From: Escherichia coli
Lineage (GTDB): Bacteria; Pseudomonadota; Gammaproteobacteria; Enterobacterales; Enterobacteriaceae
Length of the DNA: 64,000 nt
Assembly: GCF_001677475.2 (NCBI RefSeq)
Contig: NZ_CP015229.1
Strand: one strand, 5' to 3'
Shown: positions 12,166 to 62,137 of the stretch, piece by piece
Layout: each line of letters opens with the position of its first letter
Position numbering within the stretch: position 1 is the first letter of the stretch
Program-made: the position numbers and the translations under genes
The notes under the pieces: generated by a model
Told to the model about the DNA's origin: nothing
What the model saw: the letters and a program-made list of their open reading frames with translations, nothing else
The model's database searches: none

Positions 12166-12395
12166 AATATGTTCCTTAATAAAATTTATTTTTGGTTGTT
12201 AAGAGTCTGTATCTCTTGGAAACAAATTTCTCACATCAAAAAAGTTGCCGCAATGTAAACATATTGTTTTATTGATTTAAAACAAATTAACCATTGCAAT
12301 ATAAATACAACAAATACTTAAGAGTATTAAATATTTATCGCATCTATTAATTAATGTAGATTTATGTAAATGGTATTGTTGATATCAATAAAAAA

Positions 12396-12428
12396 AGCCG
12401 AAATCATTTATATAAATGATTTCGGCTT
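12396..12428 (-). terminator. intrinsic terminator downstream of yehE
   Basis: Inverted repeat AGCCGAAATCATTTA/TAAATGATTTCGGCT followed on minus strand by a T7 run. Confidence 0.7.
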
Positions 12429-12458
12429 TCTAAATGCAATTAAAACCAGGGTGGCAAA

Positions 12459-47973: not shown

Positions 47974-47975
47974 AA

Positions 47976-48008
47976 ATTACGGATGGCAGAGTATCGCCAT
48001 CCGTAATT
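47976..48008. terminator. bidirectional terminator between convergent dld and pbpG
   Basis: 12-bp stem ATTACGGATGGC/GCCATCCGTAAT with 8-nt loop. Confidence 0.7.
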
Positions 48009-51379: not shown

Positions 51380-52816
51380 TCAGCGTTTGTAGCCCCCACC
51401 CAGCGCGCCGGTGAGTTGAATGGAGGCATCCAGCCACTGCCCCTGCAAGAGCAGACCGTTCGCCCGTTCACGCAGCGCCGGGATTCTGGCTTCGCTGACG
51501 CGGGAACCAGCAATGATGCCCGCGTTAAAGCGTGCCTGCGCAAGACCTACCACACGCAAGGCATCGCGCTCAATTTGCGCCTGATGCTGGTTTTTCTCCG
51601 CAAGTGTCTGAACCTGACTGGCTGCCCGCGCCACGTCATTCACCGCTTCAACCACCGCTTTGTTGTAGCTGGCGATAGACAAGTTGCTTTCGGCTTTTGC
51701 GATATCGAGGTTGGCGTTAAGACGACCACTATCGAAAATGGGTAGCGTCAGGCCTGCCGTAACGCCCATTTGCTGCGCGGAATGACGGAACAGATCGCTT
51801 AAGTGCAACGCATCCTGTTGCAGGAAGGCCATCAGGTTGATGTCAGGATAAAATGCCGCTTTTGCCGCATCAATAGTGCTTAACGATGACTCAACGTACC
51901 AGTGCGCCGCCTGCAAATCTGCCCGACGGGCCAGTAAGGAGTACCCCAGTTCATCAGGAAGCTGACTTGCCACTTTCGGCAACACGACCGGATTAAGCTT
52001 CAATACCTTTGTCTGGTGATTTGTAAGTGCGCTTAACCGTGCCTCAATAATTTTCATTTTCCCCGCGACATCGTTGAGCTGCTGCAGGGTTTTGCTGGCA
52101 TTAATATCGGTTTCCACACCTTCAACTGAAGAAGTAATCCCGTTCTGATATAGCTGGCGATCGGTGGCGATAATGGTGTTCTGCTCTTTTTCGATTTGCT
52201 GTAAGACAGTGTTTAACGCCGCCTGGGTTTGCCACTCCCAGTACAGGCGGGCTACGCTGCCAGCCAGCAATTGGCGGGTTTGCTCGCGTTCCGCCGCTCG
52301 TGCTTTAACCGTACCCAGGCGAGCAGTTACCTCCGCCCGATTCTTTCCCCAGATATCAAGATGCCAGCCCGCCGTTAAGCCAAAAGTACCGTTGGTGTAC
52401 CACGGACCGGTCGTACCTGCGGCAGGATCGTTCAGAGCAAACGGCCCCATTAACCCTTCTGCAGACATTTTTTGCCGCTCCATATCCGCAGAAAAGTCGA
52501 TCTGCGGACCATCCTGAGTGGCAACTGCCTTCGCCTGGGCTTCAGCCAGCTGAATGCGCTGTTCAGCCACCTGCATATCCGGTGCGTTCTGTAGTGCGTT
52601 ATTAATTAAGGAAGTGAGTTGATTATCGTGATACTCCAGCCACCATTGGCTGTCTGGCCAACCATTTTTCAGCGCCGTGGGTAATGCGGTGTCAACTTGT
52701 GCAGCGGGCGTTTGCTGGCTTAACGCCTGGCGGGTTTCATGCATAGGCGCACACCCGGCCAGCATCAGTAACAGCGGAAAACAGGCGATGGCTGGATAAA
52801 AGGAATCACGATTCAT
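51380..52816 (-). CDS. mdtQ: outer-membrane efflux channel (OprM/NodT family lipoprotein), intact
   Basis: 478-aa product from Met 52816 with lipobox LLMLAGC; uninterrupted here (I recall the K-12 copy as a pseudogene). Confidence 0.8.
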   Translation of the reverse strand: MNRDSFYPAIACFPLLLMLAGCAPMHETRQALSQQTPAAQVDTALPTALKNGWPDSQWWLEYHDNQLTSLINNALQNAPDMQVAEQRIQLAEAQAKAVATQDGPQIDFSADMERQKMSAEGLMGPFALNDPAAGTTGPWYTNGTFGLTAGWHLDIWGKNRAEVTARLGTVKARAAEREQTRQLLAGSVARLYWEWQTQAALNTVLQQIEKEQNTIIATDRQLYQNGITSSVEGVETDINASKTLQQLNDVAGKMKIIEARLSALTNHQTKVLKLNPVVLPKVASQLPDELGYSLLARRADLQAAHWYVESSLSTIDAAKAAFYPDINLMAFLQQDALHLSDLFRHSAQQMGVTAGLTLPIFDSGRLNANLDIAKAESNLSIASYNKAVVEAVNDVARAASQVQTLAEKNQHQAQIERDALRVVGLAQARFNAGIIAGSRVSEARIPALRERANGLLLQGQWLDASIQLTGALGGGYKR

Positions 52817-53039
52817 GGGGGAATAATCAGGTAAGAAAAGGTGCGCGGAGATTACCGTGTGTTGCGATATATTTTTTAGTTTCGCGTGGCAATACATCAG
52901 TGGCAATAAAACGACATATCCAGAAAAATATACACTAAGTGAATGATATCTTCCGATTTATCTTAATAGTTTATGGATAACGGCAAAGGGCTTCGTTTTT
53001 TCCTATACTTATTCAGCACTCACAAATAAAGGAACGCCA

Positions 53040-53123
53040 ATGAAAATTATACTCTGGGCTGTATTGATTATTTTCCTGATTGGGCTACTGGTGGTGACTG
53101 GCGTATTTAAGATGATATTTTAA
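53040..53123 (+). CDS. yohP: 27-aa small membrane protein
   Basis: ATG 53040; translation MKIILWAVLIIFLIGLLVVTGVFKMIF; not in supplied ORF track because it is under 60 aa. Confidence 0.7.
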   Translation: MKIILWAVLIIFLIGLLVVTGVFKMIF

Positions 53124-53149
53124 AATTAATTAATGTCATCAGATCCGAA

Positions 53150-54800
53150 AATAACGAGAATATTTCAGTCTCTCATCCTGTTGCGCTCCTGTCATGTGCA
53201 TTGCTTCATATAATCACTGGCGCAAGGAACGCGCAGGGGGCGGCCAATCGCCGCCGCCCCCTGCACCCCCGGGCTCTGGCGAACAAAATCGCCGCTGCGC
53301 GGTGCCCTCGGCTTATCCCTTGCGGCTACCGGGTCGGGCGCGAGGTAACATATATGGACGCTCCCGGAATGCAATGCTTTCTTCAGTTATGTAATAAAAC
53401 GGGTAGGTGCAGCCATATATCCGGTTTCTGATGGGATTTTTATCCCGAACCATGATGAAATCCGCCAGGCAGGTACCAATCATCCTCTGCGGGCTAACTT
53501 GCCCTTGTTACCTCTCGGTGTATCCTGCCTGCGGTCTTACCTGTTTTGCCATCTTCTGAAGTCACCTGCACCTACCAGGACGTTAACTTTTTTTCAGCAC
53601 CTCGTCAGATTGACTGACCTTGTGTCAGGCGAGCTGCCGAGGTTGATATTCAGTATTGTGTGACAATATTGACCACATGATCCTCGCTGTTTTTGCCGCC
53701 ATGGCGACAACAGCTACATTGTAGTGCTTCCGCTCAAGGAGTCCCTGAAGCCAGGAATTCTCCTCAACCGCGCCGTTTCGGTTGACCCAGGCGGTAAGTG
53801 CGCGTGCGCCGTGAACCAGCAGGTATCGGAAATATCCATCTCCACGTTTGCTGATCCCTCCCAGTTGTGTTTCCCGCCGCTGGAATGTTCCTTTGGTGTC
53901 AGCCCCAGCCATGAAGCGAACTGCTTTGCGGTACTGAATTGTCGGGCATTACCCACTGCTGCTACCACATAAGTGGCCGTTAGCATGCCAACCCCCGGGA
54001 TCTTGGCCATTCTCTGGCAGGCTTCCTGCGTTCTATACCAGGAGGCCAGAGCTTCTTCTACCTGTTTAACTTGTTCTTCAAGTTCCCGGATATGTTTAGA
54101 CTGTCTGTAGATGCTGGTTCTGACAAAGGGAGATAAACCATTTTCGCCATCCTCCAGAATGGCTGGCAGCTCACGGGTTAAATGGTTTTGTCCGGCCGCA
54201 ATCGTAATACCAAACTCAGCAAGTGTGGCTCTTAAACTATTGGCACAGGCAATCCGCTCACGGATAAGTATTCCCCGTTCAGTGTGTAACGCTAAAACGG
54301 CCTGCTGCTCTTCGGTTTTTATCTGAACAAAACGCATATTCGGACGGGTTACCGCTTCGCAGATTGCTTCAGCATCTGCTGCATCCGTCTTGTTCGTTTT
54401 CACATAAGGCTTCACATACTGCGGAGGTATGAGTTTTACCTCATGACCATAGCGGGTGAATAATCGCGCAAAATAATGACTGGATGAGCAGGCTTCCATG
54501 CCAATCAGACAAGGTTCCAGTTGAATCACAAACTGAACAAACTTAGCCCGGGTGAGCTTTTTACGCAAAATAGTATGGCCTTCATGATCGACACCATGAA
54601 GCTGAAAAACGTTCTTTGCCAGGTCGATACCAAGAGTTGATACTTTCATGTGGACGCTCCTAATTTTTCAGGACGTATTGCAACGATCCAGTCTGGTACT
54701 TTGATACCGTAAAATCTGGAGCGTCCATCTCATTATCCCTGTAAAACGCGCCCTCAGCCCACATCCATGTGGGCTGCCCCGGCCTCCAGGGAACGCCTCG
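53150..54800 (-). mobile_element. IS110-family insertion sequence (boundaries approximate)
   Basis: Contains DEDD-type IS110-family recombinase reading frame (53625-54649) flanked by ~120 bp upstream and ~450 bp GC-rich structured sequence downstream; as far as I recall, not present at this position in K-12. Confidence 0.6.
53625..54649 (-). pseudogene. IS110-family transposase/recombinase with frameshift
   Basis: N-terminal 311-aa ORF (53714-54649) carries conserved ...GLTPKEHSSGGK then goes out of frame; C-terminal motifs (LGGISKRGDGYFRYLLVHGA...) continue in the overlapping ORF 53625-53912; frameshift near 53867. Confidence 0.7.
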
Positions 54801-54879
54801 GCGATTTTGGCGCCACCAAACAACCGTGCGGCCTATTGATAAAGAGTTAACACATTGTCAAAAAACATCACTATGGTTT

Positions 54880-62073: not shown

Positions 62074-62122
62074 AGACGCATCCGGCATTTGGCACCGATT
62101 GCCGGATGCAGCGCATCCGGCA
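62074..62122. repeat. REP/BIME element
   Basis: GCATCCGGCATTTGGCACCGATTGCCGGATGCAGCGCATCCGGC between convergent preA and mglC. Confidence 0.7.
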
Positions 62123-62137
62123 ATATCCACAATCACA

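What the first reader, a model, noticed from the sequence alone, without database searches (positions are those of the whole stretch)
53200..53400. GC-rich structured segment with a perfect 12-bp stem (GCAGGGGGCGGC-N-GCCGCCCCCTGC) at 53233-53266 in the IS flank
This ~200-bp stretch is far more GC-rich than neighbouring intergenic DNA and contains a perfect inverted repeat plus several shorter ones. Overlapping ORFs are predicted on both strands here with no coding signature, which is more consistent with a structured RNA or recombination site. A motif GGCGATTTTG occurs here (reverse strand) and again near 54800, so these could be terminal inverted repeats marking the element ends.
Basis: seen in the sequence. 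Interest (0 to 1): 0.35.

Follow-up and report, generated by a model that had tools for sequence, protein, structure and literature searches.

The report
IS-split replication risk sequence (RRS-dusC/TRIP1c)
The GC-rich hairpin-forming stretch is the larger part of a known E. coli chromosomal element (RRS-dusC, also called TRIP1c) that folds when unwound and makes the replication machinery leave a gap, and in this strain it has been cut in two by an RNA-guided insertion sequence that homes to that element.

Summary
Window 53180-53351 plus 54737-54837 together form TRIP1c, also known as RRS-dusC. This is a 273-bp GC-rich repeat between yohP and dusC, present in nearly all E. coli. Published experiments in K-12 show that RRS elements fold in single-stranded DNA, block polymerases at a G-quadruplex-forming 20-mer, and trigger lagging-strand gaps.

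The stem is conserved, with compensatory changes, in Escherichia, Pseudescherichia and Citrobacter copies. The G-run motif is not conserved in the divergent copies.

The two GGCGATTTTG motifs are the halves of a long-range helix of the RRS. They are not transposon ends. The real mobile element is a 1383-bp IS110-family insertion sequence of the IS1111 type (53352-54734). Its transposase is frameshifted here. It sits in a hairpin loop of the RRS, at the same position in all seven chromosomal copies sampled.

Three side findings appear new:
- This IS splits both RRS loci in at least 46 complete genomes.
- It sits at nearly every aqpZ–dusC inversion junction.
- The RRS core resembles the Rfam motif TwoAYGGAY, below threshold.

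The element itself is already known.

The parts
53180..53351 (.). Left 172 bp of TRIP1c / RRS-dusC. This is the body of the finding.
   Evidence: It is collinear with K-12 NC_000913.3 2229122-2229394 (TRIP1c coordinates from PMC10888264), shown. The repeat is present in 5425 of 5426 complete E. coli genomes.
54737..54837 (.). Right 101 bp of TRIP1c / RRS-dusC, separated from the left part by the IS.
   Evidence: The alignment to the empty K-12 site joins 53351 directly to 54737.
53233..53264 (.).
   Evidence: pair I7. Covariation: 10 aligned pairs, 6 with compensatory changes, 99.6% of cells paired. It remains the dominant structure when the left fragment alone is folded as DNA.
53251..53270 (-). 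GGGGGTGCAGGGGGCGGCGG, the G-quadruplex-forming sequence of RRS that blocks Pol I, II and IV.
   Evidence: Exact match found. The sequence and the experiments are in PMC11194060. It overlaps the right arm of the 12-bp stem.
53183..53232 (.). Helix 1: GCGCTCCT paired with AAGGAACGC around a variable loop of about 35 nt.
   Evidence: 8 pairs, 4 with compensatory changes (GCGCTCC/GGAGCGC in Escherichia, CGTTCAC/GTGAACG in Citrobacter).
53284..53293 (.). CAAAATCGCC, the 5' half of the long-range closing helix.
   Evidence: pair I4., helix 4: 8 pairs, 3 with compensatory changes, 99% paired.
54800..54809 (.). GGCGATTTTG, the 3' half of the same long-range helix.
   Evidence: As above. In K-12 it lies 130 nt from its partner.
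53336..53351 (.). Left half of hairpin B (GGGCGCGAGGTAACAT), cut in its loop by the IS.
   Evidence: The other half is at 54737-54753.
54737..54753 (.). Right half of hairpin B (CCCTGTAAAACGCGCCC).
54755..54776 (.). Hairpin A: CAGCCCACAT CC ATGTGGGCTG. The minus-strand loop reads AUGGAU.
   Evidence: pair I21., helix 11: 9 pairs, 5 with compensatory changes.
53352..54734 (-). IS110-family insertion sequence of the IS1111 type. It is 1383 bp, with AT present at both junctions (53350-53351 and 54735-54736).
   Evidence: Empty-site comparison. Identical junctions in seven other chromosomal copies. Present in 179 of 5426 genomes.
53625..54649 (-). Transposase gene, disrupted here by a 1-bp deletion near 53868.
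   Evidence: The intact homologue (341 aa) scores 359 bits against NCBIfam NF033542, IS110-family RNA-guided transposase. The deletion was found. The split ORFs are listed.
53354..53364 (.). Subterminal inverted repeat ATGGACGCTCC, right end of the IS.
   Evidence: pair I12. Its partner is at 54718-54728.
54718..54728 (.). Subterminal inverted repeat GGAGCGTCCAT, left end of the IS.
   Evidence: pair I12.
53402..53576 (-). Candidate seekRNA / bridge RNA in the non-coding region 3' of the transposase gene, closed by an 11-bp stem.
   Evidence: pair I13. RNA fold -65 kcal/mol, z-score -3.07. The position downstream of the transposase gene is the one described for IS1111-type elements in PMC11187229.
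53506..53514 (-). GAGGUAACA in the candidate seekRNA, complementary to the target sequence that abuts the insertion point.
   Evidence: pair I11. The same 10 bp, GAGGTAACAT, flank a plasmid copy that is not in a TRIP1 context (L136).

Best explanation
The segment is the yohP-proximal two-thirds of RRS-dusC, also called TRIP1c. This is a GC-rich chromosomal element of 222-273 bp that acts as DNA.

When the replication fork unwinds it, the strand that serves as lagging-strand template folds. Here that is the minus strand. The fold includes the 12-bp GC hairpin or the overlapping G-quadruplex, together with a three-way junction closed by the CAAAATCGCC/GGCGATTTTG helix. The fold stops the lagging-strand polymerase. 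A post-replication gap of up to about 2 kb is left, and SSB and RecA load into it. This is proposed to relieve topological stress at the edge of the Ter domain.

These steps were shown experimentally for the K-12 element. They are inferred for this strain from near-identity of sequence, locus and orientation.

In this genome an IS1111-type IS110-family insertion sequence has integrated into the loop of hairpin B at 53351/53352. Its target was most probably chosen by base-pairing with an RNA encoded in the IS's own 3' non-coding region. The insertion separates the two halves of the long-range helices by 1.4 kb. The 12-bp hairpin / G4 block and helix 1 remain intact.
For: Identity and locus:
- The K-12 empty site is collinear across the insertion point.
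- The window coordinates map onto the TRIP1c coordinates given in PMC10888264.
- TRIP1a and TRIP1c are the same elements as RRS-lysO and RRS-dusC (PMC11194060).

G4 sequence and orientation:
- The published G4 20-mer is at 53251-53270 on the minus strand.
- GC skew on the plus strand is negative across the window, so the minus strand is the lagging-strand template, as in K-12.

Function (published experiments):
- RecA/SSB ssGap-seq peaks, polymerase stops, conditional essentiality and single-molecule gap formation.

Fold:
- 65 aligned pairs are 97.4% paired, against 36-44% in slid controls.
- 30 pairs have compensatory changes, against 3-5 in slid controls.
- DNA folding of the intact element gives z-scores of -5.9 and -5.4 on the two strands.

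IS:
- Transposase family.
- Seven of seven sampled chromosomal copies sit at the same position in a TRIP1-type element. One plasmid copy keeps the 10-bp target match.
- The non-coding region lies downstream of the transposase gene and the IS has subterminal repeats, as defined for IS1111-type elements.
- A 9-nt stretch is complementary to the target.
Against: - No experiment was done on this strain or on an IS-split RRS. The left fragment alone folds no better than shuffles, apart from the hairpins (z-score -1.4), so gap-triggering activity may be reduced or lost.
- The replication direction is inferred from GC skew only.
- Guide-target pairing rests on one 9-nt match (roughly p = 0.03 by my estimate) and on analogy with ISEc11. 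No second guide for the other flank was identified with confidence.
- The published model assigns the block to a G4, whereas my comparison shows that the hairpin, not the G-runs, is what is conserved in divergent copies. Which structure does the work is therefore open.
Confidence: 0.9

Rival explanations
1. The element is, or is also, a gene for a structured non-coding RNA on the minus strand. It would be related to the Rfam motif TwoAYGGAY. Its two hairpin loops (ACAUGGAUGU and ACAGGGAUGU) would bind a CsrA dimer, acting as a decoy or as a CsrA-regulated RNA.
For: - Sub-threshold but repeated cmscan hits to RF01731, on the same strand and in the same register, in three diverged copies: 30.9, 36.9 and 28.9 bits, with E-values of 0.0098, 0.0036 and 0.24.
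- The architecture is the same: a long closing helix and two adjacent hairpins.
- Both loops fit the CsrA/RsmE consensus (A/U)CANGGANG(U/A), which I recall from the literature. GGA is nearly invariant in both loops across 25 copies.
- TwoAYGGAY was predicted to be a CsrA-binding sRNA (PMC4333381).
- Covariation is strong.
Against: - All scores are below the Rfam gathering score of 43 bits.
- No promoter-like or terminator-like site belongs to the element.
- Orientation relative to neighbouring genes varies between strains (PMC10888264).
- G-U and A-C counts show no strand bias: about 27 against 19. That is expected for DNA, or for folding of both strands, rather than for one RNA strand.
- In the E. 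coli CsrA CLIP-seq tables dusC, ybjE and sstT carry no CLIP flag. Intergenic, multi-copy reads may have been missed there.
- A DNA-level function is demonstrated, and it works on purified replisomes without transcription.
Confidence: 0.12
2. The GC-rich stretch and the 54800 motif are the terminal inverted repeats of the mobile element, so the segment is part of the IS.
For: The motif pair is real, with 16 nt arms at 88% complementarity (pair I4), and it brackets the transposase gene.
Against: - In K-12 and thousands of other IS-free genomes both motifs are present 130 nt apart, with no transposase between them.
- The IS junctions are at 53352 and 54734 in every copy.
Confidence: 0.01
3. TRIP1 is itself a small non-autonomous mobile element (MITE-like), and its structure reflects recognition by a transposase or recombinase.
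For: - E. coli carries 1-5 copies (PMC10888264), up to 10 matching places per genome.
- The same locus can hold the element in either orientation, with different immediate flanks (strain Dog168).
- A further divergent copy lies at asmA-yegH.
- Citrobacter carries convergent pairs.
Against: - No terminal inverted repeats or target duplications were seen at the element's borders.
- Each type sits at one fixed locus in E. coli (PMC10888264).
- No associated transposase is known.
- Orientation changes can arise from inversions between the inverted copies.
Confidence: 0.08
4. One of the small overlapping ORFs (60-76 aa) is a real gene.
For: Four ORFs are listed.
Against: - All four run across the RRS/IS junction, so none exists in IS-free genomes.
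- Substitutions between copies follow base-pairing, not codon position.
Confidence: 0.01

Closest known systems
RRS-dusC / TRIP1c of E. coli K-12 (Rudd 1999; Pham et al. 2023, 2024; Li et al. 2024)
   Same: Same locus (43 bp past the dusC stop codon), same orientation, near-identical sequence including the G4 20-mer, and the same predicted fold.
   Different: Here the element is split 172 + 101 bp by a 1.4-kb IS, so the long-range helices can no longer form locally. A few SNPs differ; for example, A at 53229 replaces K-12's G (AAGGAACGC versus AAGGAGCGC) and breaks one pair of helix 1.
TwoAYGGAY RNA motif (Rfam RF01731; Weinberg et al. 2010)
   Same: A long closing helix, then two adjacent hairpins with A-N-G-G-A-Y loops joined by AG and followed by CG. 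It is multi-copy, and its function is unknown.
   Different: Scores of 29-37 bits lie below the gathering score of 43. One loop reads AGGGAU rather than AYGGAY. The E. coli element is much more GC-rich, carries two extra 3' hairpins, and has a demonstrated DNA-level activity.
ISEc11 and other IS1111-type members of the IS110 family with a seekRNA / bridge RNA (Siddiquee et al. 2024)
   Same: DEDD-type transposase. Long non-coding region 3' of the gene. Subterminal inverted repeats 7 and 3 bp from the ends. One fixed target and orientation. A promoter (TTGCAT-16 nt-TATAAT) would form only when the ends are joined.
   Different: Different length (1383 against 1443 bp) and a different target. Guide segments are inferred here, not mapped. 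I could not assign an ISfinder name.
IS621 inserting into REP sequences; IS4321/IS5075 inserting into Tn21-family inverted repeats
   Same: An IS110-family element that homes to a structured chromosomal or transposon repeat.
   Different: The target here is the RRS/TRIP1 element, which has 1-5 copies per genome and a role in replication, rather than the hundreds of REP copies.
pilE G4 of Neisseria gonorrhoeae
   Same: A G-rich sequence that causes gap formation during replication. The RRS authors cite it as the only other example.
   Different: Its purpose is different (antigenic variation), and it has no multi-helix fold around it.

Membership tests
RRS / TRIP1 (type c) | Sequence homologous to K-12 TRIP1c at the yohP-dusC locus | tested here: met
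   The window maps onto NC_000913.3 2229122-2229394 once the IS is removed.
RRS / TRIP1 (type c) | Contains the G4-forming 20-mer GGGGGTGCAGGGGGCGGCGG | tested here: met
   Exact match at 53251-53270, minus strand.
RRS / TRIP1 (type c) | G-rich strand is the lagging-strand template | tested here: met
   GC skew is negative on the plus strand in 7 of 8 8-kb bins. This is an inference from skew, not from a mapped origin.
RRS / TRIP1 (type c) | Uninterrupted 222-273-bp element | tested here: not met
   Split at 53351/53352 by the IS.
RRS / TRIP1 (type c) | Triggers RecA/SSB-bound lagging-strand gaps | not testable with these tools
   Needs ssGap-seq or a replication assay. Shown only for K-12.
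TwoAYGGAY (RF01731) | cmscan score at or above the gathering score of 43 bits | tested here: not met
   30.9, 36.9 and 28.9 bits.
TwoAYGGAY (RF01731) | Two terminal loops with AYGGAY | tested here: inconclusive
   Hairpin A reads AUGGAU, which fits. Hairpin B reads AGGGAU or AGGGAC, with G in place of Y.
TwoAYGGAY (RF01731) | Long closing P1 helix around the two hairpins | tested here: met
   Helices 3, 4 and 6.
IS110 family, IS1111 type | DEDD (IS110-type) transposase | tested here: met
   NF033542, 359 bits against a cut-off of 140.
IS110 family, IS1111 type | Long non-coding region downstream of the transposase gene, not upstream | tested here: met
   273 nt between the stop codon (53625) and the IS end (53352), and 85 nt upstream of the ATG.
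IS110 family, IS1111 type | Subterminal inverted repeats | tested here: met
   The 11-bp repeat ATGGACGCTCC lies 7 and 3 bp from the ends if the cut is placed at A^T (pair I12).
IS110 family, IS1111 type | One specific target and orientation | tested here: met
   Seven chromosomal copies have identical junctions in TRIP1-type elements. One plasmid copy has the same 10 bp at the only junction that survives.
IS110 family, IS1111 type | RNA from the non-coding region pairs with both target flanks | tested here: inconclusive
   One 9-nt match to the right flank and an 8-nt match to the IS end. The left-flank guide is unclear.
CsrA-binding sRNA | Expressed RNA with GGA motifs in hairpin loops that binds CsrA | tested here: inconclusive
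   Two CANGGANG hairpins are present. Expression and binding are not testable here. The neighbouring genes carry no CLIP flag.

The most novel reading that the evidence does not exclude
RRS/TRIP1 and the TwoAYGGAY motif are one class of foldable element. If so, one of two things follows. Either the hundreds of 'TwoAYGGAY RNAs' in gut Clostridia and gamma-proteobacteria are really DNA-level replication-gap elements. Or the RRS also works through a transcript whose two CANGGANG hairpins bind CsrA. In either case the conserved, covarying multi-helix fold, rather than the G-quadruplex, would be the functional unit.
Probability: 0.15. Interest if true: 0.7.

Novelty: already known. Interest (0 to 1): 0.35.

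Why it matters
Three side results could matter to people working on RRS.

1. Natural E. coli lineages, including SMS-3-5, IAI39 and CE10, carry an IS inside both RRS loci. [quoted passage not shown] Either a split RRS still works, or other copies compensate.

2. The 1.3-Mb inversion around the terminus was attributed to recombination between TRIP1a and TRIP1c. In complete genomes it is almost always found with this IS at the junctions.

3. Cross-genus covariation supports a specific fold that forms on both strands, and it does not support conservation of the G4. This fits the recent report that the complementary strand also triggers gaps.

Tried and rejected
- Rfam at E-value thresholds on the window itself gave only chance-level hits (AgvB, mir-611), because the element is split. 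The intact K-12 copy was needed.
- A 61-kb multi-locus Rfam scan at E <= 0.1 found nothing, because E-values scale with the amount of sequence searched.
- The genome-collection scan with the 17-mer GGCTACCGGGTCGGGCG returned mostly chance matches in GC-rich genomes. The hits in Clostridia, Collinsella and Porphyromonadaceae looked unrelated to the element on reading: three identical Oscillospiraceae sequences plus unrelated matches. Only about 20 enterobacterial loci were real.
- Deciding the transcribed strand from G-U against A-C pairs was inconclusive.
- The promoter and terminator scan of the K-12 intergenic region found nothing that belongs to the element.
- A search of the seekRNA paper's supplements for this target sequence gave no hits, so the IS could not be named.
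- The CsrA CLIP-seq supplement listed no signal for neighbouring genes. This is weak negative evidence.
- A literature search on Box C, RSA, BIME and IRU found nothing.
- I considered and dropped a type I toxin-antitoxin locus, a retron, a riboswitch with a sequestered Shine-Dalgarno sequence, and a hok-like mRNA. There is no conserved ORF, and the downstream 'ORFs' are only 3-9 codons long and differ between copies.

Full report
**Observation.** The window is E. coli chromosome with the gene order mdtQ(-), yohP(+, 53041-53124), an insertion, dusC(-, from 54880), yohJ, yohK, cdd. The 200-bp stretch is 59.5% GC, next to DNA of 35.5-37.5% GC. It contains the perfect 12-bp inverted repeat at 53233-53244 / 53253-53264. 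Such repeats occur at four places in the window, against about 0.15 expected per shuffle. The overlapping ORFs exist, but all of them cross an insertion junction.

**Where the mobile element really ends.** Aligning the window with K-12 gives an empty site ...GGGCGCGAGGTAACAT|CCCTGTAAAACGCGCCC.... The inserted DNA is 53352-54734 (1383 bp), with AT at both junctions.

- It encodes an IS110-family transposase on the minus strand. The intact homologue is 341 aa and scores 359 bits against NF033542.
- A 1-bp deletion near 53868 frameshifts the gene in this copy.
- Only 85 nt precede the ATG, but 273 nt follow the stop codon.
- An 11-bp subterminal inverted repeat, ATGGACGCTCC, lies near both ends.
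- These are the features that define the IS1111 type, in which the 3' non-coding region encodes a seekRNA that selects the target (PMC11187229).
- That region folds with a z-score of -3.07 and is closed by an 11-bp stem.
- It contains GAGGUAACA, complementary to the 9 bp that abut the insertion point. It also contains AUAUAUGG, complementary to the IS end.
- Joining the ends, as read from the sequences, would create TTGCAT-16 nt-TATAAT across the junction. This is the junction promoter typical of the family.

**What the flank is.** Window 53180-53351 plus 54737-54837 form one 273-bp element that is uninterrupted in K-12. The element occurs in 5425 of 5426 complete E. coli genomes, at a median of 3 places per genome. 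Copies lie at yohP-dusC, aqpZ-lysO, alx-sstT and elsewhere.

The literature identifies it in two ways.

- It is the TRIP1 repeat of Rudd (1999). TRIP1c lies at NC_000913.3 2229122-2229394, 43-44 bp past the dusC (yohI) stop codon (PMC10888264).
- TRIP1a and TRIP1c are the 'replication risk sequences' RRS-lysO and RRS-dusC (PMC10287960, PMC11194060, bioRxiv 10.64898/2026.06.16.732529).

Those papers report the following:

- The two repeats lie 650 kb either side of dif.
- They carry the G4-forming sequence GGGGGTGCAGGGGGCGGCGG on the lagging-strand template.
- They block Pol I, II and IV at that site.
- They produce RecA/SSB-bound gaps of up to about 2 kb wherever they are placed.
- At least one is conditionally essential.
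- The complementary strand also triggers gaps, in about two-thirds of encounters.

GC skew indicates that the minus strand is the lagging-strand template here too.

**Structure and conservation.** I collected 25 copies from E. coli, E. albertii, E. whittamii, Pseudescherichia vulneris and several Citrobacter species.

- The RNAalifold consensus has 65 pairs in 11 helices, and 30 pairs show compensatory changes.
- 97.4% of cells are paired, against 36-44% when the partners are slid by 1-3 columns.
- The slid controls have 3-5 pairs with compensatory changes.
- The GGCGATTTTG pair is helix 4, part of the long closing helix.
- Counts of G-U against A-C give no strand preference.
- Both DNA strands of the intact element fold far better than shuffles, with z-scores of -5.9 and -5.4.

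This fits a structure selected in DNA, or on both strands. It also fits the published activity of both strands.

The G-run motif is present only in the Escherichia-type copies. The asmA-yegH, Pseudescherichia and Citrobacter copies keep the hairpin but lose the G4 at that site. I therefore regard hairpin versus G4 as open. The polymerase-stop data cannot tell them apart.

After the insertion, the left fragment alone folds no better than shuffles (z-score -1.4), and only the 12-bp hairpin and helix 1 survive.

**Relation to a known RNA motif.** Scanning intact copies against Rfam gives one consistent match, TwoAYGGAY (RF01731). The match is on the minus strand and in the same register each time, at 30.9, 36.9 and 28.9 bits against a gathering score of 43. 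The shared features are a long closing helix and two adjacent hairpins whose loops read AUGGAU and AGGGAU. Both hairpins fit the CsrA/RsmE consensus (A/U)CANGGANG(U/A), which I recall from memory. TwoAYGGAY has been predicted to bind CsrA (PMC4333381).

Membership is not established, and I found no promoter or terminator. The CLIP-seq tables give no signal for the neighbouring genes. I keep this as a minority reading.

**The IS homes to the RRS.** The IS is present in 179 of 5426 genomes, at 339 places. Seven sampled chromosomal copies sit at exactly the same position and orientation in a TRIP1-type element. Their contexts are yohP-dusC, aqpZ-lysO, a divergent copy at asmA-yegH, and the recombinant contexts aqpZ-IS-dusC and yohP-IS-lysO. 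A truncated plasmid copy has the same 10 bp, GAGGTAACAT, at its surviving junction.

**Consequences seen across genomes.**

- 93 genomes have the junction aqpZ-TRIP1-IS, and 95 have yohP-TRIP1-IS.
- 46 accessions are shared between the two 60-row lists. In at least 46 complete genomes both RRS loci are therefore split.
- In SMS-3-5, the strain used by Li et al. to illustrate the 1.3-Mb TRIP1a/TRIP1c inversion, both inversion junctions carry the IS.
- Of the 93 genomes with the aqpZ junction, 85 continue into dusC and 8 into lysO.
- Only one genome has an IS-free aqpZ-TRIP1-dusC junction.

The inversion is thus almost always associated with the IS. These counts are genomes, not independent events, and could reflect a few clades.

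**Verdict.** The feature is an already described and experimentally studied element, here in an IS-disrupted state. The 'terminal inverted repeat' reading is wrong. The 'structured element' reading is right, but the established function is at the DNA level.

Noticed in passing
E. coli complete genomes (e.g. NC_010498.1, NC_011750.1, NC_017646.1, NZ_CP059003.1); loci L132-L134, L137, L138: The same IS splits the TRIP1/RRS next to both aqpZ and yohP in at least 46 complete genomes. [quoted passage not shown]
   Followed up: partly
L133, L134, L137, L138: Of 93 genomes with aqpZ-TRIP1-IS, 85 continue into dusC (the 1.3-Mb inversion) and 8 into lysO. Only one of 5426 genomes has the inverted junction without the IS. 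In these junctions the left TRIP1 half is a-type and the right half is c-type, so the exchange lies within or at the IS.
   Followed up: partly
L129-L131 (asmA-yegH intergenic region): A divergent TRIP1-like copy, closer to the Pseudescherichia and Citrobacter versions and lacking the G4 20-mer, sits between asmA and yegH. It is not among the five types listed by Li et al., and in these strains it also carries the IS.
   Followed up: partly
L035, L036, L038, L048, L075, L079 (Citrobacter): TRIP1-like elements occur as convergent pairs 50-100 bp apart, so each locus presents both orientations to a replication fork.
   Followed up: no
L007 (strain Dog168), yohP-dusC: The element at this locus is inverted relative to K-12, and its immediate flanks resemble those of the aqpZ copy. 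The whole intergenic sequence differs, so this is not a simple flip.
   Followed up: partly
window ~53868: A 1-bp deletion frameshifts the transposase of this IS copy (ORFs of 311 aa and 95 aa instead of one of 341 aa). This copy probably cannot move without help in trans.
   Followed up: yes
window 53352-53380 joined to 54700-54736: Joining the IS ends would create a TTGCAT-16 nt-TATAAT promoter across the junction, upstream of the transposase ATG.
   Followed up: partly
L136 (plasmid pSTEC299_1): A truncated copy of the IS lies in non-TRIP1 DNA that nevertheless has GAGGTAACAT at the junction. An IS66-family fragment cuts it off.
   Followed up: no
window 12394-12429, 47975-48008, 62098-62124: Three other perfect inverted repeats of 12 bp or more with short loops. 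The last one contains GCCGGATGC, which looks REP-like.
   Followed up: no
window 51380-52906 (-): mdtQ is an uninterrupted ORF here (the listed ORF is 508 aa). The K-12 records annotate it as a frameshifted pseudogene.
   Followed up: no
window 53146-53206 (+): A weak Rfam match to AgvB (22.9 bits, gathering score 56, E = 0.19) just after yohP. It is probably chance.
   Followed up: no
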